From NCBI GenBank assembly GCA_000004985.1, contig GG738906.1: DNA of 64,000 bases. One strand, given 5' to 3'. Below are positions 4,661 through 16,394 of the stretch, piece after piece. Positions within the stretch are counted from its first letter, which is position 1; every line of letters starts with the position of its first letter. This stretch comes from Naegleria gruberi (Eukaryota). A program made the translations under genes and the position numbers. The notes under the pieces were generated by a model. That model ran no database searches, was not told the DNA's origin, and worked only from the letters and a program-made list of their open reading frames with translations.

Positions 4661-5304
4661 ATGAGCAACAAGGTAATTAAGGTCATTCTTCTTGGGGATT
4701 CTGCAGTTGGAAAATCAAAGTTAGTTGAAAGATTCATGATTGATGGATTTCGAGAGCAACAACAATCTACGTTTGCAGTAAACATCTTCCCATACAAAGC
4801 CAAAATTGATGGTGAAGACTGCGATGTTGAATTCTGGGTAAGTGTTCCGATTTGATCATTTATGATAGAAAATCATTAAAGGATACAGCTGGTCAGGAGA
4901 GGTTTAATAATGTGCATCCATCTTACTATGACAGAGCCCATGCTTGTATTTTCGTTTTTGATGATAGACAAATTACATACAAGAATTTAGAAAAGTGGTA
5001 CAACGAATTGCAAACTTATCGAAAGGGTATTCCTTCGATAGTGATCTGTAACAAGATAGATTGTAGGTTTTCTGATTTGAATTAATAATGAATAACAACT
5101 AATTTTCTTGGAATAGTAAACATGGAGGCAACAAAAACCACTTTCAATTTTGCCTCAAAGAGAGAACTTCCATTATATTATGCCTCTGCTGCTGATGGAA
5201 CCAATGTAGTTAAGGCTTTTACAGATGCCCTCAAACTAGCAAAGAAATGTAGAGACAACCCAGAAAAGGAATTTGTGGATGATGTTCTAGAATTACTAAA
5301 TTAA
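4661..5304 (+). CDS. RABL2: RABL2 (Rab-like protein 2, ciliary/IFT-associated small GTPase). Three exons, join(4661..4837,4882..5062,5117..5304).
   Basis: The sequence VILLGDSAVGKSKLVERFMIDGF...DTAGQERF...HACIFVFD...NKID...LPLYYASAADGTNVVKAF aligns closely with human RABL2 (IICLGDSAVGKSKLMERFLMDGF...LPLYFVSAADGTNVV). There is no C-terminal prenylation motif, as in RABL2. Introns are 44 and 54 nt with GTAAGT and GTAGGT donors. Confidence 0.85.
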
Positions 5305-5844: not shown

Positions 5845-7441
5845 ATGAGACTATCAAAGAAACTTTTGAGCGTAGCAAGAATGCACGCCCAAGCTACATT
5901 ACCAATCAACAGATGTTTCAATTCTTCTCGATACTATCAAATTGGTAGGTTTATAAAAAACTAAAAAAGCTAACATTCCGAAAGATATTGGAAAAGTATC
6001 TTCAACTTTCCAAATTCCTTCACTTTCTGCTCTTCAAAGTAAAACATTGGAGGTTGTATCAAAGGATAATAGTAAGGATGTCTTCATTGAAGCACCAATT
6101 TTTTCTGGTAAGACTTTGGCCTATCTTGTTCCAACCTTTGAATTAGTTTCTCAAGCAATCAAATCAGAGAGATGGGCAGAAAGACCAGGCTTCCGTGCCC
6201 TCATTGTTGTTCCAACTCGTGAAGCAGCTATTGCTGTTGGTTTCCAAATTGACAAATATATTTCATCACTCCCTGTTGAAGAACGTCCTTTGGCTCCTGT
6301 AACTAAAGGAAATACAGACACTTACACATTCAAGTCAACAAAGAAGGAAGGACACGAAATTATTGAAGACCACCAAGGATATTCCGCTTATGAAAAGTCT
6401 ATTACTCGTAGAGAAAATGTTTATGGACTTTCATATGCTGTTATTTGCGGAGGAAAGAGTATGGAACAAGAAATTACTATGCTTGATGCAAGCGAGCCAG
6501 AAATTATTGTTGCAACACCAGGCAGACTTTTGGACCACATGAAGAATTCTGATTACTTCCGTAATTGTAAGATTGTTGTTGTTGATGATTGTCAACTCTT
6601 CAAGGGTGATGTCGAAGGAGTTATGGATAAGGTTTTTGAAAATATTCCACAAACAACCCAAAGAGTTTTTGTTGGAACCGCCGAACCTTTCAAGAAATAT
6701 TTGAGAAATAGTGATAATGTAGAACTCATCTCATCTACTGAATCAGTTTCAAAGAGTGACGTTAAACAATCAATCATCAAGACACAAAATACTGCTGAAT
6801 CTTTGAAAGTTTTACACCAAATTTTGTCTCAAAACAAGCACAAGAAGGTTGCTGTTTTTGGTGAAAACTCTCAAATTATTCACACACATTACTTGATGGC
6901 TGAAAATGGAATCTTTTCTCTCCTAATTGCTAGTAAGATTGCTCCTTCCAGATCATTGACAAGTTTTAGTAATTTTAATCAACAACAAAATGGTATTGCA
7001 TTCTGTTCAAATATTGCCTGCCAAATGACTCCTGATGTGGATTTGGTCATTCATTTAGGAGCTCCAGAAACTCAAGAAAAGTACGAAAGTAGACTTTCTC
7101 GAACCTATTCTAAGAATCAATCTCAATCTATTGTCTTGGCCTCCCAAATTCCAGACTTTTTGAGCAATGTACAAATTGTTCAAACACCATCTGCATCTTC
7201 TGATTTTATTGCTAAACAACTCAGAGTTCCTTCAATCCAAAAAGTTAACGGTGAGAATTTGTTGATCTCTTTAATTTTGAGAAGACAAACTACTACACCA
7301 GAAGAAAAGAAACAAGCTGTAGAGCAAGCTATTAAGGATTTGAAAGATTTTGGTTTTGTGGAATTACCTAAATTGCCAAAACAACAAGCTATCAAACTTG
7401 GTTTTGAAAAAGAATTGCTTGACGCAGGATTGCTGGAATAA
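5845..7441 (+). CDS. Divergent DEAD-box-helicase-like protein with a probable mitochondrial presequence. Two exons, join(5845..5944,5985..7441).
   Basis: Exon 1 encodes MRLSKKLLSVARMHAQATLPINRCFNSSRYYQI, which is basic and hydroxylated with no acidic residues, like a mitochondrial presequence. A 40-nt intron follows (GTAGGT...gCTAACattccgaaAG). Exon 2 carries a Q-motif-like TFQIP, a degenerate motif I (APIFSGKTLAY), Ia (PTREAA), Ib (VATPGRLLDH) and motif II degenerated to VVDDCQ. No clear motif VI is present, so the protein is probably catalytically impaired. Confidence 0.55.
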
Positions 7442-7586
7442 ATGACCATTTATTTTTTCTGCACACCTCCATTGTTGTGTCTAACCAAGTATTTGAATAA
7501 TTTGATTTTTTCTGAATAATTAAGGCAGTTTATATTAAAAAAGGAATGTTAAAATATAATGTTACAACTGTTTTTATTAAAATAAT

Positions 7587-7867
7587 TTAGATGATACCTT
7601 TGTACTTCATGTCAGATCCCTTAATATGATCAACCAACCATTGCCTTATGAATTGCTTTCAGCATCACCAACTGAGGTCAAACCTAAAGCATCTTTAACG
7701 AATTTGTCGTGAATTTCCATGTGAGCAGCTGATTCAGACCATGCTTTGCGAACAAATCTTCTTCAGTCTTGAAGTGCATAACAACATAGTCCAACAAGTG
7801 GTACACACAAGTTCTGTTGGCATCCAAAGCATTGATCAATTCAAAGAGCTTCTCAATGAAGTTTCAT
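7587..7867 (-). pseudogene. Hemerythrin-like pseudogene, N-terminally truncated with three single-nucleotide frameshifts
   Basis: The minus-strand reading switches frame three times. It reads MKLH, then [+1] EKLFELINALDANRTCVYHLLDYVVMHFKTEEDLFAK, then [-1] AWSESAAHMEIHDKFVKDALGLTSVGDAE, then [-1] KQFIRQWLVDHIKGSDMKYKGII*. This aligns to animal and protist hemerythrins (HKKIF...HFTHEE...HKKMHKDF...WLVNHIKGTDFKYKGKL) and retains every His/Glu/Asp iron ligand. Both -1 shifts fall in AAAG-CA contexts. About 25 N-terminal residues are missing. The element sits in the 276-bp spacer between two convergent genes. Confidence 0.5.
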
Positions 7868-7870
7868 GAA

Positions 7871-9718
7871 CTAGAGTTTATTGTTTTGTCTTGAGAATGT
7901 ATCTCTAATATCAAGCTCTAGCATTAAATTTGAAAATGAGGGTAATACAAGATCGTTTGATTGGGGTTCACTAATTTTTTGTTCGCTTCGTAAATAGTTT
8001 CCTGCACTGGATACACTTGAGATTTGAGAATTAAAACTAGATCCAATAGAATCTGAAATGGATGATGTATTAGAAATTGGTGTTGCACCGAAAGAGGAGA
8101 CACTCGATTGAGAACCAATTGAAGCCAAAGATATTTTCAAAAGAGATGATGGTGAACTGTTGGAGGATACTGATGAAACTACACTACTTGGGGTAGCCGA
8201 ACTGAGAGTATTATTCATTTGTCTAACCTTATCAATTTTCTTTGGTCTACCTCTCTTCTTTTCTGGAAGGTCAACACATTTCTTTCCCAATCTTACACAT
8301 CTCAAACAGGGCCTTTCCTTAGAGCATCTCTTGTGAACTCTTCTACATTCAGAGCATGATCTTTTCCCTTCACTAGTTGAGGGTTGATCATAATCATCAC
8401 CAGCTTCTTTTGAACTTGAAGGATAATAGTTAAAGTCCATGGTTTCAGCACTCTCATCCTTTTCAACCATTCCACTTTGGGAATCAAGTGCCATCTTTAA
8501 CTTTGATGCACTTATTTCAGGAGCATTGGGTTTTGCAAATATTTCTGTATTCTTAATTGTAGATGGAAGTGGCTTAAAAGATTTATCCTCTAAACTCTTT
8601 TCGTCTAATCTCATTCTTTGGAAGGTGGTTGAAAACGATGGTTGGTGAGGAGACTCGAATTCTTCTGTTGACAGAGGAGTTAGTGGGGAAATTGTGTCCT
8701 GAGAACTATTTTCCCTGCAAATTGTATAGACTGAGAGCCTGTTTGGCTGATTCAAAGGTGTATTGCTTGGTTGGTTGGTAACATATAGAGGTTGGTGCAG
8801 AGTGGTAACAAACTGCTTATCTTCTTCGACTTTGTAGGAATGAATTTGGTGAGGAGAATTGAGAACGGGTGAGAAGGTTGTTTGTTGAGTGATTGGTGTT
8901 TTAAGAGAAGTAAGAACTGGAACATATTTTACATCTTCTCTTTGGAAGTGGAGAGATCCTCTTGTTTGAGGATGATAGATTGTTCTTGGATCATTGGTTG
9001 GAATTATTCTATTGTGGTGAACAGGGTGATTGGAAGGTGTATTGGAGTGGACCACCTGTATAGTTTGGGTTGGGACAGAGTGATGAAAATGATGAGCCTG
9101 AGCTGGCACCTGAGATACAGTAGTGGTTGGTTGCGAGTATGCCACGTGGGTTTGATGAAGTACAGTTGCTCCTTGTGGCAAGTTGGTGTAATAAGGCTGG
9201 TTCTGCTGAAGAGTAACATGTCCGTTTTCCAATGAATAAGCATTACTTGCTGAAGAAACAATGATTGGTTGTGGAGAGACTTGTACTCGTTGAGGGTGAA
9301 TAGAATTTTGAGGTGTTGTGGTGCCATTTTCAATGAACCTAGTCGTGCCATTAATGGATGCGCTCAACAAGGATGAATTACTTTGCGTTCTAGTAGTTGG
9401 GTGGGCAATGAGAGATTGGCCACTTTGAATAGGTGTTGCTGAAGAGTAGATAGGAGAGCTAATATTGGATTGACTTTGAGGTTGGATTAATTGTTGATGT
9501 GTAATTATTTGAGGTTGGTAATGGTGATGTGCAGGAATAACATGAATATTAGTTGGTGTGTGACTGATAACCTGTCCAGAATTTGGTAATTGATGAGAAG
9601 GAATAATACCTGTTGATGATGATTGTGTTGAATAAACAGTACCCGGTTGTTGAAAACCACTGTTTGATGTTGCCATTCTTGTGTGAGCATTTTGAGAATA
9701 ATAATATTGAGAAGACAT
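7871..9718 (-). CDS. Zn(II)2Cys6 (GAL4-type) binuclear-cluster transcription factor, Q/H/S/T/N-rich
   Basis: The ORF is 615 aa. It contains CSECRRVHKRCSKERPCLRCVRLGKKCVDLPEKKRGRPKK, which is the exact C-x2-C-x6-C-x5-C-x2-C-x6-C spacing followed by a basic linker. The rest is Q/H/P/S/T-rich and low-complexity. Confidence 0.7.
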   Translation of the reverse strand: MSSQYYYSQNAHTRMATSNSGFQQPGTVYSTQSSSTGIIPSHQLPNSGQVISHTPTNIHVIPAHHHYQPQIITHQQLIQPQSQSNISSPIYSSATPIQSGQSLIAHPTTRTQSNSSLLSASINGTTRFIENGTTTPQNSIHPQRVQVSPQPIIVSSASNAYSLENGHVTLQQNQPYYTNLPQGATVLHQTHVAYSQPTTTVSQVPAQAHHFHHSVPTQTIQVVHSNTPSNHPVHHNRIIPTNDPRTIYHPQTRGSLHFQREDVKYVPVLTSLKTPITQQTTFSPVLNSPHQIHSYKVEEDKQFVTTLHQPLYVTNQPSNTPLNQPNRLSVYTICRENSSQDTISPLTPLSTEEFESPHQPSFSTTFQRMRLDEKSLEDKSFKPLPSTIKNTEIFAKPNAPEISASKLKMALDSQSGMVEKDESAETMDFNYYPSSSKEAGDDYDQPSTSEGKRSCSECRRVHKRCSKERPCLRCVRLGKKCVDLPEKKRGRPKKIDKVRQMNNTLSSATPSSVVSSVSSNSSPSSLLKISLASIGSQSSVSSFGATPISNTSSISDSIGSSFNSQISSVSSAGNYLRSEQKISEPQSNDLVLPSFSNLMLELDIRDTFSRQNNKL

Positions 9719-10087
9719 TTTTCATCACCAAGTACTTGTGCTCCACAAGATAATGACTGTAAGCGTATTAAGGGTGATTTTTTGAACGAACAATGTATTA
9801 TGAGGCAAATACGTTGCGTCTTTTTTTCGCAGAATAAAGTACAGTATTACGCTGTAATAGGTTGTTCTTTTACAGCTCTAACTATTTTTCTCCCTTTCTC
9901 CTTTGAAAATTTTCAACTCCACAACTTTCCATAACCTAAAGCTTATAACATGTTTTAGTGAGGTATCGAGCACACAGTAGTAGGTATCTTGATCTGTGTC
10001 AAAATTTTACAAGCTGTCATAACAGGAAATAGTTATTTGATACAAATTGAAAGAGAATGATAATGGAATTTTAAAATTTTAAAAAAA

Positions 10088-12094
10088 ATGCAAAAATCTG
10101 TTGGTGTAGGAAGAAAAGTGTTGGTAACTTCCGGTTTAACAAGACTACTCCAACAACCAAAACATGCCAACTATTCAACCAATAGCAAAAGTTGTAATAG
10201 TAGATGGTTTGATCCTAAAGACTCACAACATATAACAACCCCGGTTGCTCTTTATAACACTCTCTCCAAGAGTAAAGTATCATTAAAAATTGCTAAGCGA
10301 TTATCGGATGTGCCAGTTATAAATTGGTATTCTTGTGGACCAACAGTTTATGATGATACACATTTGGGTCATGCTCGTAATTATGTTTGTCTTGACATTA
10401 TTTATAGAATTTTAGCCCATTATTTTAACTATCCTGTATTACATGTTATGGGAATTACAGATGTTGATGATAAAATACTTAAAAGAGCAGCTGAGCTTGG
10501 AAAACAACCTTCGGAAATTTCTCGTAAATATGAATTTGATTTTATTGAGGATATGAAAAAATTGAATGTAATTCAACCTTATGTGTACACAAGAGTAACA
10601 GAACACATTGAAGAAATTAAACAGTTTGTTGAAGAAATGGAAAAAAATGGTTTTACCTATACTACTGCAAATGGTGGTGTTTATTTCGATTCTAAGAAGT
10701 TTGAACAAAATGATCATTACTATGGAAAACTTTCTCCAAATAATGCACAAGAATCAATTCAACAGGAACACATTGAACATAGGGAGGAGAAAAAGGATCC
10801 TAGAGATTTTGCACTTTGGAAATTCACATCTAGGGATTATTTGGGTTGGGAAAGCAAATGGGGATATGGTAGACCAGGATGGCATATTGAGTGTAGTGCC
10901 ATGATTGACCATATTTTTAATAATAAGAGTGGTGCTGCAACTATTGATATTCACTCTGGTGGAATTGATTTGGCTTTTCCACATCATAACAATGAAATAG
11001 CCCAGAGTGAAGCAAAGAATCATGCTCATTTTTGTTGCAGTAGAGAAACAAATTGGTGTAATTATTTTATTCATGTTGGACACTTACACATTAAGGGACT
11101 CAAAATGTCAAAATCTTTAAAAAATTTTATTACTATTAAGGACTTTTTGAAAAGGTATAGCCCAGACCAATTTAGAATATTCTGTTTGCTACATCAATAT
11201 AATCAAACTTTGGATTATAATGAAGATGCCATTGGAGAAGCAATTAAGGTTGAAAAGAGAATACTTGATTTTTTACATAATGTTTCATTTTATAAGCAAG
11301 AATGTGAGGAAAGTAATACTATTATAAGAAAATGGAATACCGAGATTATCAATTATATGGAGAAACTAGCTATTTTAAAGCAAGAAATACACAATGCTAT
11401 TTGTGATGATTTTAATACTCCTACAATAATGTCAAAAATATGTGAAATAATTAACATTACTAATGCCCTTTTTTTCACAAATAACAATATTCAAAAAGAT
11501 TTCAAAGCTGCTGAACTTCTCGAAAACACCTCTTCATACATTATTAATTTATTAAATATGTTGGGATTACAGATATCAACCATCAAAACAATCCCTTCTA
11601 AAATTGAATCAGAAGAACAGGTGGCTAACCATCCATTCACTTCTAGAATCATTGATACGCTAATGGAGTTTAGAGCTACAATAAGAAAAGAGGCTCTGCT
11701 CTCAGATCCAAAACAGACAAAAATCTTACAACTCATTGACGATTTGAGGGATCACAAGTTGAGAGAATTGGGTATAAGGATAGACGACAGAAGTGGAGAG
11801 AAAAGTGTTTGGAGGTTTGATGTCAGTAATCAAGATATTGGCTCAAATGTTGCCGACCATCACACCCTCAAATTAGCTCAGAGACAACAAGAGGTTGAAC
11901 TAAAACTCTCCATTTCAGTTTCTGACTATTTCAAGAAAATACCCCAACACAAAGACAAGCATTATTCTCAATATGACCAAAACGGTATTCCCACACATGA
12001 TGCTGAAGGACAACCACTCTCCAAGTCTGCTCTCAAAAAGTTACATAAGGAAGTAGAAAAACATGCAGAATTTTTAGCCAAACACAAAAATTAA
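10088..12094 (+). CDS. CARS: Cysteinyl-tRNA synthetase (class I)
   Basis: The HIGH motif is present as CGPTVYDDTHLGHARNYV, and the KMSKS motif as KMSKSLKNF. The zinc/Cys-binding region WHIECSAM is also present. An N-terminal extension (MQKSVGVGRKVLVTSGLTRLLQQPKH) may be a targeting sequence. The stop codon overlaps the 3' end of the convergent gene by 4 bp. Confidence 0.9.
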   Translation: MQKSVGVGRKVLVTSGLTRLLQQPKHANYSTNSKSCNSRWFDPKDSQHITTPVALYNTLSKSKVSLKIAKRLSDVPVINWYSCGPTVYDDTHLGHARNYVCLDIIYRILAHYFNYPVLHVMGITDVDDKILKRAAELGKQPSEISRKYEFDFIEDMKKLNVIQPYVYTRVTEHIEEIKQFVEEMEKNGFTYTTANGGVYFDSKKFEQNDHYYGKLSPNNAQESIQQEHIEHREEKKDPRDFALWKFTSRDYLGWESKWGYGRPGWHIECSAMIDHIFNNKSGAATIDIHSGGIDLAFPHHNNEIAQSEAKNHAHFCCSRETNWCNYFIHVGHLHIKGLKMSKSLKNFITIKDFLKRYSPDQFRIFCLLHQYNQTLDYNEDAIGEAIKVEKRILDFLHNVSFYKQECEESNTIIRKWNTEIINYMEKLAILKQEIHNAICDDFNTPTIMSKICEIINITNALFFTNNNIQKDFKAAELLENTSSYIINLLNMLGLQISTIKTIPSKIESEEQVANHPFTSRIIDTLMEFRATIRKEALLSDPKQTKILQLIDDLRDHKLRELGIRIDDRSGEKSVWRFDVSNQDIGSNVADHHTLKLAQRQQEVELKLSISVSDYFKKIPQHKDKHYSQYDQNGIPTHDAEGQPLSKSALKKLHKEVEKHAEFLAKHKN

Positions 12095-14492
12095 TCTCTT
12101 TCTGTAATGCCATTCCTAATAAATTTGCTAACAACGGCAGCAGAAGGATTGAAATTTTCCTGGTCTTGTTTCATATTTACAAGTAAATCACGAAGCTTTG
12201 AGGTAACACTCTTTTGCTCAAGCAATTTTTCCAAATCTTGTTCTAGTTTGATATTGGTTCGTTTAAGCTTGTCGTTTTCTTTTTTAAAATGTTTCAAGTC
12301 CTTTTCAATAACTTTGAATTCCTTTCTCATCAACTCTACTTCTCTGTCTTTGTCTTCAAGAGAAGTGACGAGATAGTTGTATGGTTTTGATGAGGTTTCA
12401 AATTGTTTTTTCATTTTGTTCAATCTTTCAGTGAGCATTGAAATAGTTGATTGGTCTTTCTTCTCTTTCTCTCTTTTTTCTGTTAATTGTTTCTCCAAGT
12501 CAGAAACTTTTCTGGCCAGGTAAAGACTGTACTTTACTCTTCTTCCCATATTTGTTGGTACTAGCGCAGTTAACTCACTAAGTATTCTTTCATGACCATC
12601 TTTTTCTTGATAATCTGGAGAGTATGTTTCAATAACTTTGTCCAAATCTCTTTCAAGGTCTCTGTATTGGTTCAATTCCTTAGTTACAGCACTGAGAGTT
12701 GTTTCCAGCTCTGTTATTTTTTTTCCAGTTGAATTCTGCAAAGAATAATATTCTGTTTTGAGAACATCTAATTTTTTCTTCATAATCTCACTTTCAATCT
12801 TTGATTGCTTCAGATTTTCTGCATGTTCCATAAGAGACACTTGCAATCTTTCATTATCAAAAATTTTAAGGTTTGCTTGTGTCCTAATCTCACTGATTTG
12901 CTTTTCCAGGGTACTTTGGAGGGTTCTAAACTCCATCATAACATTAGTATTAGTTTCCTTTAGGTCTTCCACTTGTCTCTTTAACTTTTCTACTTGAGCT
13001 TCGGCCCCATCTTTTGATTCTTTTAACATTCTATTCTCTCTTTCATAATTTTCTTGTGAGTTTTGCTTGATAATATCCAAATCTTTTTGAGTTTTTTCCT
13101 TTAGCTTTTGAATTTCTTCTTGAAGACTTCTTTCATATTCAGTTTTAGACTCCTCTCTTGTTGATAATAGTTTATCATAAAGTGTCTTTTTTTCTTTTCT
13201 CATTTCTTTCAACTTATTTTCTAATCTCAAAATGTCATCCTCATTCTTACTCGATTTGTTTGAGTTATTTTCAATTTCTTTTGTTAGATACATTTTATCA
13301 TTCTTAAGTAGTTCAACTTGTTGTTTAAGGTTTGTAAGCTCCAAATTAAGTGTTTCTTTTTCCTCTCTTGCAATATCAAGGGATCTCTTTACCAATTCTA
13401 ATTCTGATTGACATTTTCTGGCTTCTTCTTCATAGTTTGAGGCTTTTAGCTTTACTGCATCAAACATTTCACTTTTGGTTTTAATTTCTTCCACCATTAC
13501 AGTTTTTCCATTTAGTTCATCCAATAACTTTTGGCATTTTGTTTCAAGCATATCTATTTGAATCAAATAATCTCTTTTCATATCGTCATTCAATCTTTTT
13601 TGGTGATCAGAATCTCGCACGATTTTCTCGTACTTTTCATTAATTAATCTAAGATTATCATGAAGTATCTCATTCTCTTCTTGATATTTCGAAATACTTT
13701 CTCTTGTTTCTCTCCTGACTTGATCTATAATCTTTGTATTTGCATCTGTAACCTCATTACTTTTTTGATTTAACAAAACCTGATATTGATTTTGGAGTTG
13801 AACAAGTTTTTTTTCATTTCTACAAGGGTTATTAATCAAAGTTGTTCTGCTACTTACTGTTCGAGTTGAGTTTTAAATTTGAGAATTTCCATTTCTAAAA
13901 AATGTTTTTCGTTTTCCTTCTCCTGCTCTAATTGGGCTAATTGCATTTGAGCTTCTCTCCTTATTCTCTCACATTCTAATTTTTTCTTTTGTAATTCTAA
14001 TTTAAGAGATGACACATTGGATTGAACCTCTCTTGTGTGGTAAGAGTTGATGGATGTGATATCAGTACTAATTGATATTTCCTCTTCTGATAAAAGAGGT
14101 GATGACAATAAACTAGTATCTACAGTTTTCGCTCTCTTTTTCTTTGGACTTGGTGTTGAAAGTAAATTTGATGAAATTGGACTACTAATTGTTGAAATTT
14201 CACTCGCTAGTTTATCTAATTCATCATCATCAAAACAAGTATTAAGGTTTGCTTTTTTCATCATTTTTCCTAAAAGTCTCTTCCCTTGATCTTTGGGAGA
14301 GGAAGTACTATCCGAAGAACATCCGGTAATTGGTGATGAAAAATAAGAAGGGACATTAAAGTAATTTGTATCGGTTTTTGAATAGTTATTCTTGATTGGG
14401 GTCCGAAGAATATCTTCTCCAAACAACCCACCTTCAAATTCTGACATTTTTTTTTGTTTGCAAAAAGTACAAAATTTGGCGGGAGAATACAT
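12091..14492 (-). CDS. Long coiled-coil protein (~790 aa) of unknown identity. Two exons joined by a 38-nt intron at 13820..13857.
   Basis: ORFs 13854..14492 and 12091..13839 join in frame (LEQ|NEKKLVQLQ) across GTAAGTAG...CCCTTGTAG. The N-terminal part is S/T-rich, followed by ~600 aa of heptad-rich E/K/L sequence. The true start may be the internal Met (MSEFEGG) near 14447, because an E2F-like site lies in the first 45 nt. Confidence 0.5.
14475..14487. promoter_or_regulatory. E2F-like site TTTGGCGGGAGAA in the 5' region of the coiled-coil gene
   Basis: The motif matches the E2F consensus TTTSGCGC / TTTGGCGGGAA. It lies in the tiny spacer, under 60 bp, between two tandem minus-strand genes. 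Confidence 0.35.
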
Positions 14493-14501
14493 AGTTGAGT
14501 T

Positions 14502-16394
14502 TTATTTGGTATTTAAACTTAACCATACAACTTTGCCTGAATTGGTACCAATAGCAAGATAACCAGTTGATTCCTTTGGCTGTGTTGGATCTTTTAGATC
14601 TGGACAATAAGATATACAGGTAGCATAGTCATTCGAAAGGGTGGTCAAGGTACTTCTTGGTAACAAGTTTGGAGTGGTAACAACCTGTATTTCACCATTC
14701 GTCTTACCATAAAATATATATGATCCATCATGGCTGAAACAAATGCATGTTAAATCTGGAATATCTTTGGAGTGTTGTTTCGAAAACTGAACTACTCCAG
14801 CATTTGGTTTTTTTCCACATGTAATTATTTGAATGGAATTACCACATCTAAGAACTAGCTCTGTCTTCTTGTCAGGATTAATGTGCAGTTCTGGAATTTC
14901 ATTTCCTTGACAAATGTTTGAGTCATACTTCACCACTGTATTTGGTAGAACCTCCCCTTTGGCATTAATATCAACCCTATAAATGCACCCATTTCTTGCA
15001 AGAGCATACTTAAGATTAAGATCACCCTCAGAACAATCTAGTAATCTAATGATTGGACTATCTCCAAGTTTAATCAAAGAAGTGAATTCGTGTTCGTACT
15101 TCATATATGCCAATCTACCATCAAATGTTCCAACAAGAGGCTTGCTTGTATCTTTTTCTACTAAAATTGATGTCATGTTAACATCAACCATTTGTGCATC
15201 CCATAAAAAGTACTTGTCTGTTTCCAATTTAAATAATAAAAATTTGTCATCCTTCACTGCTTCCATAAACACTGTATTGACACCAAATGTGTAGGCTGGA
15301 AGTAAATCATTCTTGGTTTGTAAAAAGTTAGCATATTTTGCATCCAGTAGATAATTTGGAACATCCTGTAATTTTTCATTTGCTGTCTTGAAGGTCTTTG
15401 CAGACAAGTTATTTCCTTGCTTTGATAAGAACATTAACCTAGAATTTGATTTTGGTGGTTTTTGAGGAGGTGCATAAATAATAGTATGCACAGGTGCTTT
15501 GAACACCTCAGCAGTATCCAAAATGGAGATAGAGTATTTGTGCTTTTGTTGATTTAAGGAAGGAGTTGACGGTTCTGGAATATTAGCAACAATATTTCCT
15601 GGATTTTCGGTGGCATATTCATAATAAGATCTCTTCTTTTTAGTAGAAGATCTATCAGTACGAGAATAGTCACTCCAAATACTGGAAGGTTGATTGTCAA
15701 CTACCATTTGATATGTATTGCCTGTTTGTGTGAAAGAGGGAGGCTCTGCGTTGAATACATTACTCATATTTAAGATTAATGAAGTAGGATCTAGTTTCTC
15801 ATATTTTGTTGGAATGTCTTGGTTTTCTGCTCCGTAATGATCTTCAATATTTTCCAAATCTTTTGTGACAACCTCTGCACATTTACTGATTACCATTTCT
15901 CTTGAGATCACATTCGAAAGTTTTTCGAATTTTAACAAATCTCCATACTTGAGTTTAGCTTCCTGATCATAAAGACCCATATTTTCCATGTCAGTAATCA
16001 ACTTCATAGCTCTGGCAGTCTCTCCTTTTAACATTAAACACGGAAAGTATGCATAGAGAATTCTACGCATAACAGTGTTAAATTCAGCATCTCGTATAAA
16101 TTTTTTGCATTGGTTAAGGTAATTAATAGCCTTTTCAAAATCACCACCTTGGATAAATCGGATCAATCTTCTCTTATTGAACAAGTTTAACGCTACTTCC
16201 AGACTAACTGAATTATTATTTTCAATGGTTAAAACAACATACCTTTCAATTACGTTATGAAAGCCTCTTTCGTGGAGATAGTGGAACATGAATGTGTCTA
16301 TTTGATCGATAACTTCAGGGTTCGGATTTTGCACCAATCTCTTTCTGATGTCTTCTCTTATCAGCCTGCGTGATGGACGATTGTCTGTGCTCAT
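14502..16394 (-). CDS. LisH-CTLH domain protein with C-terminal WD40-like repeats (WDR26/SMU1/GID-type scaffold)
   Basis: The ORF is 630 aa. The N-terminus has a LisH-like segment (IDQIDTFMFHYLHERGFHNVIERYV). A CTLH-like segment follows (LEVALNLFNKRRLIRFIQGGDFEKAINYLNQC). The C-terminus has beta-propeller-like repeats (FSHDGSYIFYGKTNGEIQVV, LAIGTNSGKVVWLSL). Confidence 0.5.
   Translation of the reverse strand: MSTDNRPSRRLIREDIRKRLVQNPNPEVIDQIDTFMFHYLHERGFHNVIERYVVLTIENNNSVSLEVALNLFNKRRLIRFIQGGDFEKAINYLNQCKKFIRDAEFNTVMRRILYAYFPCLMLKGETARAMKLITDMENMGLYDQEAKLKYGDLLKFEKLSNVISREMVISKCAEVVTKDLENIEDHYGAENQDIPTKYEKLDPTSLILNMSNVFNAEPPSFTQTGNTYQMVVDNQPSSIWSDYSRTDRSSTKKKRSYYEYATENPGNIVANIPEPSTPSLNQQKHKYSISILDTAEVFKAPVHTIIYAPPQKPPKSNSRLMFLSKQGNNLSAKTFKTANEKLQDVPNYLLDAKYANFLQTKNDLLPAYTFGVNTVFMEAVKDDKFLLFKLETDKYFLWDAQMVDVNMTSILVEKDTSKPLVGTFDGRLAYMKYEHEFTSLIKLGDSPIIRLLDCSEGDLNLKYALARNGCIYRVDINAKGEVLPNTVVKYDSNICQGNEIPELHINPDKKTELVLRCGNSIQIITCGKKPNAGVVQFSKQHSKDIPDLTCICFSHDGSYIFYGKTNGEIQVVTTPNLLPRSTLTTLSNDYATCISYCPDLKDPTQPKESTGYLAIGTNSGKVVWLSLNTK

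What the first reader, a model, noticed from the sequence alone, without database searches (positions are those of the whole stretch)
7587..7867. Hemerythrin-like gene remnant with three single-nucleotide frameshifts in the spacer between convergent genes
The minus strand encodes a clear hemerythrin homolog with every di-iron ligand in place (H...HF.TEE...HMEIH...WLVDHIKGSD). It can be read only by shifting frame three times (+1, -1, -1), and it lacks about 25 N-terminal residues, so the gene is inactivated. Both -1 events sit in the same AAAG-CA context.

This is either a young pseudogene or a local cluster of homopolymer sequencing errors. The rest of the window shows long intact ORFs, which argues against general error. 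Oxygen-binding hemerythrins have a patchy eukaryotic distribution, so loss in progress is biologically informative for oxygen ecology.
Basis: seen in the sequence. Interest (0 to 1): 0.55.

Follow-up and report, generated by a model that had tools for sequence, protein, structure and literature searches.

The report
Decaying duplicate hemerythrin gene in Naegleria
This is a real but ordinary dead copy of an oxygen-binding hemerythrin gene in the amoeba Naegleria gruberi, which still keeps an intact copy elsewhere, so it shows turnover in a gene family and not loss of the function.

Summary
The window is Naegleria gruberi NEG-M nuclear DNA. On the minus strand, 7854..7563 is a 292-bp fragment of an Nfa1-type hemerythrin gene: codons 27-119, the stop codon, and 27 nt of 3' UTR including AATAAA. 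It is 92.9% identical in DNA to the intact N. gruberi gene NAEGRDRAFT_36233, which lies on another scaffold.

The damage is not three single-base frameshifts.
- The first 26 codons and the start codon are missing. Homology begins 17 nt after the stop codon of an orphan Zn2Cys6 gene.
- There is a +1 T at 7805 and a 10-nt deletion at 7798/7797. Together they restore the frame.
- There is a 4-nt deletion at 7742/7741.
- There is a 1-nt deletion at 7657/7656.

An independent de novo assembly carries every one of these lesions, so sequencing error is excluded.

Substitutions against the intact copy are mostly synonymous (14 synonymous, 5 nonsynonymous; dN/dS 0.07). The copy split off before two N. 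gruberi-complex lineages diverged. The most likely history is therefore a paralog that worked for a long time and died recently.

N. gruberi keeps several hemerythrins, so the "loss in progress" reading fails. The finding is a new member of a known kind and of low interest.

The parts
7563..7854 (-). Homologous segment of the hemerythrin pseudogene: codons 27-119, the stop codon, and 27 nt of 3' UTR
   Evidence: blastn of L001:424-731 against window 7853-7563. Global alignment gives 248/267 identical aligned bases, 92.9%. No significant similarity upstream of 7855 or downstream of 7562.
7855..7870 (-). 16-nt junction between the Zn2Cys6 stop codon and the start of hemerythrin homology.
   Evidence: Similarity to the intact N-terminal codons is not above shuffled controls, so the status of this His codon is undecided.
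7871..7873 (-). TAG stop codon of the upstream 615-aa Zn2Cys6 ORF (NAEGRDRAFT_73662)
7805..7805 (-). Inserted T (+1) after CDS nucleotide 127
7797..7798 (-). Site of the 10-nt deletion in codons 45-48. It can also be read as a 9-nt deletion between ACTTTG direct repeats plus the loss of one T. Together with the +1 at 7805 it restores the frame.
7741..7742 (-). Site of the 4-nt deletion (CGCT, codons 67-68), which shifts the frame
7656..7657 (-). Site of the 1-nt deletion (T of ATG97), which shifts the frame
7587..7589 (-). Ancestral TAA stop codon of the hemerythrin reading frame
7573..7578 (-). AATAAA conserved with the intact paralog. It is the first AATAAA downstream of the Zn2Cys6 stop codon on this strand.
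7568..7601 (-). Cluster of three differences between the reference and the independent assembly: +A at 7601, A/G at 7595 (I118/V118), +T at 7568

Best explanation
The feature is a non-functional remnant of a duplicated Nfa1-type (O2/NO-binding, di-iron) hemerythrin gene in Naegleria gruberi.

Inferred history:
1. The gene was duplicated before the lineages of the N. gruberi complex diverged.
2. The copy at this locus stayed under purifying selection, meaning it encoded a working protein, for most of its history.
3. It was disabled recently. A rearrangement or deletion removed its promoter, start codon and first 26 codons, leaving it 17 nt behind the stop codon of a lineage-specific Zn2Cys6 gene. 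Small indels (+1/-10, -4, -1) also accumulated.

It can no longer make a four-helix-bundle hemerythrin. It has no start codon, helix A is truncated, and there are two uncompensated frameshifts.

What is shown: the homology, the lesions, their presence in independent data, the substitution pattern, and the intact paralog.

What is inferred: the order of events; that the 5' truncation was a rearrangement, since collinearity with other Naegleria ends here; and that the remnant now serves passively as the 3' UTR and poly(A) signal of the Zn2Cys6 gene.
For: Source organism:
- The 615-aa neighbouring ORF is exactly XP_002671380.1 of N. gruberi.
- The helicase is 100% identical to the N. gruberi protein P0013.

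Homology:
- E 2e-45 to N. gruberi P0001, and PF01814.

Lesions:
- Lesion map against the intact CDS.
- The same lesions are present in the independent assembly L005.

Intact paralog:
- P0001 = XP_002678794.1 on a different scaffold of 536,960 bp. It is also present in the same independent assembly (L001).

Selection history:
- Nei-Gojobori on 86 shared codons gives Sd 14, Nd 5, dS 0.35, dN 0.024, dN/dS 0.07.
- Polarised with outgroups, the pseudogene branch has 8 synonymous and 4 nonsynonymous changes; the intact branch has 5 and 0.
- The neutral expectation is 73-81% nonsynonymous, and P(<=4 of 12) is 0.0005-0.005.
- K27E and K76M hit residues that are invariant in all seven intact sequences compared.
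- V118I is still polymorphic between the two assemblies.

Age of the duplication:
- The intact gene and its counterpart in a second N. gruberi-complex sample (L092) are sisters (84% bootstrap), with the pseudogene outside them.
- dS is 0.18 between those two, against 0.35-0.38 to the pseudogene.

Context:
- In N. lovaniensis, N. fowleri and an uncultured Naegleria, the orthologous helicase is followed convergently by an EML-like WD40 gene and a TTL gene. None of them has a hemerythrin, Zn2Cys6 or CysRS gene there.

Literature:
- N. gruberi has 5 single-domain copies (PMC4919030).
- Copy number varies between strains (PMC9928731).
Against: - Low dN/dS together with four or five indel events is unusual. 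A rough estimate puts only the last ~5-10% of the branch in the neutral phase, or about 3 expected substitutions, so indels would outnumber neutral substitutions. The same locus shows 3 indels against 2 substitutions between the two assemblies, so this may be normal for non-coding DNA in this genome. The sample is tiny.
- No intact orthologue of this particular copy was found in any database.
- The counts are small (19 differences) and bootstrap support is moderate (75-84%).
- There are no expression data.
- The full N. gruberi assembly could not be searched at the DNA level.
Confidence: 0.85

Rival explanations
1. Dead-on-arrival fragment. A 292-bp piece (codons 27-119 plus the start of the 3' UTR) of another functional hemerythrin paralog, now lost or unassembled, was copied here recently and was never functional at this locus. 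The copying could have been a 5'-truncated retrocopy or filler DNA captured at a double-strand-break or rearrangement junction.
For: - Both ends of the homology are abrupt.
- The 3' end lies about 10-15 nt past AATAAA, near where an mRNA would end.
- The fragment sits where collinearity with other Naegleria ends.
- An indel-rich, substitution-poor pattern would fit an error-prone copying event.
Against: - There is no poly(A) tract after the homology and no target-site duplication among the repeats found.
- The required source gene, closer than P0001, is absent from the annotated N. gruberi proteome and from all searched collections. The best hit is P0001 at 86%.
- Loss of 3' flank homology is equally expected after dS 0.35 of neutral divergence. 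Retention of the AATAAA block fits former constraint.
- This explanation needs one extra lost gene.
Confidence: 0.1
2. Sequencing or assembly artefact: the gene is intact and the indels are errors in the reference assembly.
For: The remnant has a strikingly low dN/dS.
Against: - An independent de novo assembly from a different read set has every lesion and also lacks the N-terminal 26 codons.
- The lesions include 4-nt and 10-nt deletions, and a single-base deletion outside any homopolymer.
- The neighbouring ORFs are intact.
- From my own knowledge, not from a tool: the N. gruberi reference was Sanger shotgun sequenced.
Confidence: 0.01
3. The gene is still expressed as protein through recoding, by programmed frameshifting or RNA editing that restores the frame.
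For: Only the low dN/dS.
Against: - There is no start codon and no N-terminal helix, because homology begins at codon 27 directly after another gene's stop codon.
- At least two uncompensated shifts of different kinds (-4 and -1) lie in non-slippery contexts.
- One lineage carries a further +1 near the C-terminus.
- From my own knowledge: no such mechanism is known for Naegleria nuclear genes.
Confidence: 0.01

Closest known systems
Naegleria gruberi hemerythrin NAEGRDRAFT_36233 (XP_002678794.1, 119 aa). It is the closest N. gruberi relative of N. fowleri Nfa1 found here; orthology was not tested.
   Same: 92.9% DNA identity over codons 27-119 and the first 27 nt of 3' UTR. Same ligand codons H56, E60, H75, H79, H107 and D112. 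Same stop codon and AATAAA.
   Different: The window copy lacks codons 1-26 and a start codon. It carries +1/-10, -4 and -1 indels and 4-5 amino-acid replacements, including two at otherwise invariant lysines. It lies on a different scaffold in a different gene neighbourhood.
Metazoan myohemerythrin (PDB 2MHR/1A7D) and Methylococcus bacteriohemerythrin (PDB 4XPX)
   Same: Same family by sequence (E 3e-10 and 7e-11). Same H-HxxxE-HxxxH-HxxxxD di-iron motif layout, with ligand numbering as given for the N. fowleri hemerythrin in PMC11964265.
   Different: Those are complete four-helix-bundle proteins. This is a truncated, frameshifted fragment that cannot fold into one.
Duplicated (non-processed) pseudogenes in birth-and-death multigene families
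   Same: Homology to a functional paralog in the same genome, disabling indels, loss of the 5' end, extra nonsynonymous changes on the dead branch, and polymorphic further decay.
   Different: The indel-to-substitution ratio is unusually high and the pairwise dN/dS is very low (0.07), implying a long functional phase. The remnant abuts the stop codon of an unrelated gene.

Membership tests
O2-binding hemerythrin (Pfam PF01814; Nfa1 / myohemerythrin type) | Significant sequence homology to family members | tested here: met
   PF01814 scores 27.5 bits against a cut-off of 25.3. E 2e-45 to N. gruberi P0001. PDB hits to 4XPX and 1A7D.
O2-binding hemerythrin (Pfam PF01814; Nfa1 / myohemerythrin type) | All seven di-iron ligands present (H26, H56, E60, H75, H79, H107, D112; numbering from PMC11964265) | tested here: inconclusive
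   Six codons are intact within secure homology. The CAT at 7858-7856, read as H26, lies outside demonstrable homology.
O2-binding hemerythrin (Pfam PF01814; Nfa1 / myohemerythrin type) | Continuous ORF of about 119 codons with a start codon, encoding the complete four-helix bundle | tested here: not met
   Codons 1-26 are absent and the frame changes at 7742/7741 and 7657/7656. The longest ORF is 51 aa. It is therefore a relic of the family, not a functional member.
Pseudogene (duplicated, non-processed) | Disabling lesions relative to a functional paralog, shown to be real in independent sequence data | tested here: met
   Lesions mapped. They are identical in the independent assembly L005.
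Pseudogene (duplicated, non-processed) | Relaxed selective constraint on the pseudogene branch | tested here: inconclusive
   4 nonsynonymous changes on the pseudogene branch against 0 on the intact branch, and 12 total changes against 5. The branch is still significantly below the neutral expectation. This fits recent relaxation, but the counts are small.
Pseudogene (duplicated, non-processed) | No protein product | not testable with these tools
   No transcript or proteome data are available here. No protein from this locus exists in the 5.8-billion-protein collection; the best N. gruberi hit is the paralog at 86%.
Processed pseudogene (retrocopy) | Poly(A) tract at the 3' end and flanking target-site duplications | tested here: not met
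   No A-rich tract follows 7563 on the minus strand. No flanking direct repeats bracket 7563-7854. Intron loss is uninformative because the parent gene has no introns.

The most novel reading that the evidence does not exclude
The remnant may not be inert. It may have been co-opted as the 3' UTR and polyadenylation signal of the orphan Zn2Cys6 transcription-factor gene, because the first AATAAA after that gene's stop codon is the hemerythrin-derived one at 7578-7573. The convergent helicase gene ends only 145 bp beyond the remnant's stop codon (121 bp beyond the end of homology). Read-through transcription could therefore produce double-stranded RNA across a segment that shares a 47-nt perfect match (7797-7751) with the intact hemerythrin mRNA. 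That would give pseudogene-derived small RNAs that tune expression of the iron- and stress-responsive hemerythrin in trans.
Probability: 0.05. Interest if true: 0.45.

Novelty: new member of a known kind. Interest (0 to 1): 0.12.

Why it matters
The finding matters little beyond annotation. It adds one unannotated pseudogene to the Naegleria hemerythrin (Nfa1) family. It gives a small worked example of birth-and-death turnover in a family whose copy number is already known to vary between strains.

It does not indicate loss of oxygen-binding capacity.

Two minor uses remain. The locus gives a first, very small estimate that indels are about as frequent as substitutions in neutral N. gruberi DNA. 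It also marks a point where collinearity with other Naegleria genomes ends, next to a lineage-specific Zn2Cys6 gene.

Tried and rejected
- **Missing N-terminal codons elsewhere in the window.** I tested whether an insertion of the Zn2Cys6 gene had split the hemerythrin. tblastn and blastn found no copy. There was only a weak out-of-frame hit at 9342-9169, which is not significant after correcting for the size of the window.
- **Synteny with hemerythrin loci of other Naegleria.** Neighbours of the intact genes in N. lovaniensis (L002/L003), a N. fowleri-like contig (L004) and others (L006, L008) have no counterparts in the window. The GTPase next to the L008 gene is Ran-like and only 29% identical to the window's Rab-like gene.
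- **Orthologues of the Zn2Cys6 protein**, sought to test whether its C-terminus is ancestral. None exist in the collection.
- **Intact orthologue of the pseudogene lineage in JGI metagenomes.** A degenerate DNA pattern requiring M76 and K84 gave 0 hits. A protein-guided scan gave 55% identity at best.
- **Retrocopy hallmarks.** No poly(A) tract and no target-site duplication.
- **Non-coding RNA in the spacer.** Only a chance-level Rfam hit, E 0.11.
- **The 'AAAG-CA' mutational-context idea.** Rejected as a coincidence.
- **Origin of the independent read set PRJEB11402.** No paper was found.
- **EML-like WD40 counterpart downstream.** There is only a 27%-identity match over 311 aa (E about 1e-3) to ORFs at 12091-16394, so this is left undecided.

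Full report
**What the window is.** The 615-aa minus-strand ORF at 7871..9718 is, residue for residue, N. gruberi XP_002671380.1 (NAEGRDRAFT_73662), on a 286,411-bp scaffold. The plus-strand helicase ORF at 6047..7441 is 100% identical to an N. gruberi protein. The window is therefore nuclear DNA of Naegleria gruberi NEG-M. It is about 33% G+C.

**Checking the observation.** The joined peptide reaches Pfam PF01814 above its gathering score. It matches solved myohemerythrin and bacteriohemerythrin. It finds a 119-aa N. gruberi protein at 86% identity, E 2e-45, followed by ten other Naegleria-type hemerythrins. The flanking genes are convergent as stated: a DEAD-box helicase (+) and a Zn2Cys6-domain ORF (-). 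The remnant is real and at the stated coordinates.

**What the lesions really are.**
- I fetched the DNA of the intact gene (L001:345-704, encoding P0001) and aligned it with the window.
- Homology runs from window 7854 (second base of codon 27) to about 7563. That is 27 nt past the TAA stop (7589-7587) and includes AATAAA (7578-7573).
- Identity is 248/267 aligned bases, 92.9%.
- Relative to the intact gene there are four changes inside the homologous segment.
  - An inserted T at 7805.
  - A 10-nt deletion between 7798 and 7797. It can also be read as a 9-nt deletion between two ACTTTG repeats plus the loss of one T.
  - A 4-nt deletion (CGCT) between 7742 and 7741.
  - A 1-nt deletion (the T of ATG97) between 7657 and 7656.
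It explains the odd 'VYH' where relatives have 'GTTLKT'.
- Upstream of 7855 and downstream of 7562 there is no similarity above shuffled controls.
The CAT read as ligand His26 cannot be shown to be homologous.
- The other six ligand codons (H56, E60, H75, H79, H107, D112; numbering as in PMC11964265) are intact.
None lies cleanly in a homopolymer; under the alternative reading of the 10-nt gap, one lost T falls in a TTT run. The common AAAGCA context is a coincidence (59 occurrences in the window).

**Artefact or real?**
- An exact look-up of the Zn2Cys6 protein returned a 3,647-bp contig from an independent de novo assembly (ENA ERZ929261, run ERR1078381, k127_426478 = L005).
- This contig aligns to window 10334..6688 at 99.84% identity. 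It differs at six positions, so it is not derived from the reference.
- Between 7602 and 7870 it is identical. The truncation and all indels are present.
- The same assembly also contains the intact paralog (L001).
- Sequencing error is excluded.
- Three of the six differences fall within 34 bp at the remnant's 3' end: +A at 7601, which adds a further frameshift in that lineage; A/G at 7595, which is I118/V118; and +T at 7568.

**History of the copy.**
- On 86 shared codons, the pseudogene and the intact gene differ by 14 synonymous and 5 nonsynonymous changes (dS 0.35, dN 0.024, dN/dS 0.07).
- Polarised with five outgroup genes, the pseudogene branch has 8 synonymous and 4 nonsynonymous changes, and the intact branch has 5 and 0. 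Two changes are ambiguous.
- Under neutrality, 73-81% of changes would be nonsynonymous. P(<=4 of 12) is 0.0005-0.005.
- The copy was therefore under purifying selection for most of its existence, and the neutral phase is short.
- Two of its replacements (K27E, K76M) hit residues that are invariant in all intact sequences. A third (V118I) is still polymorphic.
- I added the gene from a second N. gruberi-complex sample (P0018 / L092, Logan SRR19859333). The two intact genes are sisters (84% bootstrap) and the pseudogene branches just outside them (clade support 75%).
- dS is 0.18 between the two intact genes, against 0.35-0.38 to the pseudogene.
- The duplication is therefore older than that split, while the inactivation is recent.
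- One tension remains. Four or five indel events sit beside only about 3 expected neutral substitutions. The reference and the independent assembly differ by 3 indels and 2 substitutions over 3.6 kb, so a high indel share may be normal here. A single mutagenic repair event is an alternative that I cannot exclude.

**Genomic context.**
- The remnant fills 292 bp of the 429-bp spacer (7442-7870) and begins 17 nt after the TAG stop of the Zn2Cys6 ORF.
- That ORF has no detectable homolog other than itself.
- In N. lovaniensis, N. fowleri and an uncultured Naegleria, the orthologous helicase (59-61% identity) and its upstream 107-119-aa neighbour are conserved. Downstream, however, they have a convergent EML-like WD40 gene and then a TTL gene. 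None has a hemerythrin, Zn2Cys6 or CysRS gene there.
- Collinearity thus ends exactly at the spacer that holds the remnant.
- A weakly similar WD40-type reading frame at 12091-16394 (-) might be a diverged counterpart (27% identity over 311 aa). If so, the pseudogene, Zn2Cys6 and CysRS genes together form a block of about 4.7 kb specific to this lineage.
- Neighbours of intact hemerythrin genes in other Naegleria are not in the window.
- I infer that a rearrangement removed the 5' end of the paralog.
- There are no retrocopy hallmarks and no Rfam family.

**Comparison with what is known.** The remnant belongs by descent to the O2-binding hemerythrin family. N. fowleri Nfa1 and the biochemically characterised N. 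fowleri hemerythrin, which binds O2 and NO, are members (PMC11964265). N. gruberi is reported to have five single-domain copies (PMC4919030), and copy number varies among Naegleria strains (PMC9928731). A dead copy is what a birth-and-death family is expected to leave behind. I found no paper describing this particular pseudogene.

**Verdict.** This is a real, recently inactivated pseudogene of a duplicated hemerythrin. The finding is ordinary: a new member of a known kind, of low interest. The only less ordinary reading that remains open is untested. In it, the remnant now provides the 3' UTR and poly(A) signal of the orphan Zn2Cys6 gene. Being convergent with the helicase and sharing a 47-nt perfect match with the intact hemerythrin mRNA, it might also yield regulatory small RNAs.

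Noticed in passing
window 9169-9342 (-), inside the Zn2Cys6 ORF but in another frame (115-aa ORF 9004..9351 -): There is a weak hemerythrin-like match (about 23% identity over 61 aa) with QH.K.LF, H.KT..LF and HKE motifs in the right order and spacing. tblastn E is 0.01-0.1. Only 0-1 of 2000 shuffles reach the score, but about 1100 such segments exist in the window, so it is not significant after correction. It lies on the same strand, 1.3 kb upstream of the remnant.
   Followed up: partly
window 7871-9718 (-): The 615-aa protein carries a 'fungal' Zn(2)-Cys(6) binuclear cluster domain (PF00172, E 9e-7). It has no homolog other than itself among 5.8 billion proteins. It appears to be a lineage-specific, low-complexity (Q/S/T/N/P/H-rich) orphan in a heterolobosean.
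   Followed up: partly
window 7442-7870, compared with L009 (N. lovaniensis), L010 (N. fowleri) and L011: Collinearity with three other Naegleria genomes ends at the 3' end of the helicase. They have EML-like WD40 and TTL genes next, whereas N. gruberi has the pseudogene, the Zn2Cys6 gene and CysRS. ORFs at 12091-16394 (-) are only 27% identical to the EML-like gene over 311 aa.
   Followed up: partly
window 7568-7601: Three of the six differences between the reference and the independent assembly L005 fall within 34 bp at the 3' end of the remnant (two 1-nt indels and one substitution). About 0.06 would be expected if differences were spread evenly over the 3.6 kb. The cause could be a clustered mutation, haplotype divergence or a local assembly problem in L005.
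   Followed up: partly
L002 and L003 (N. lovaniensis GCA_003324165.2, contigs PYSW02000015.1 and PYSW02000084.1): The identical hemerythrin protein occurs on two contigs with the same neighbours (B-box/SPRY, F-box, a 184-aa gene, a kinase). These are either haplotigs or a recent segmental duplication.
   Followed up: no
L001 about 850-894 (downstream of the intact N. gruberi hemerythrin) and L004 8825-8896: The end of L001 looks like the 3' half of a tRNA gene on the opposite strand. It contains GGTTCAATTCCC when read on the opposite strand. It is cut off by the contig end and ARAGORN did not call it. In the N. fowleri-like contig a tRNA-Met lies 330 bp upstream of the hemerythrin gene.
   Followed up: no
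window 6047-7441 (+) and 4673-5304 (+): The helicase ORF listed from a TTG start is 464 aa, but the annotated N. gruberi protein is 523 aa, so an upstream exon or start is missing from the mechanical ORF. The Rab-like GTPase upstream is split over several ORFs, which implies introns.
   Followed up: no
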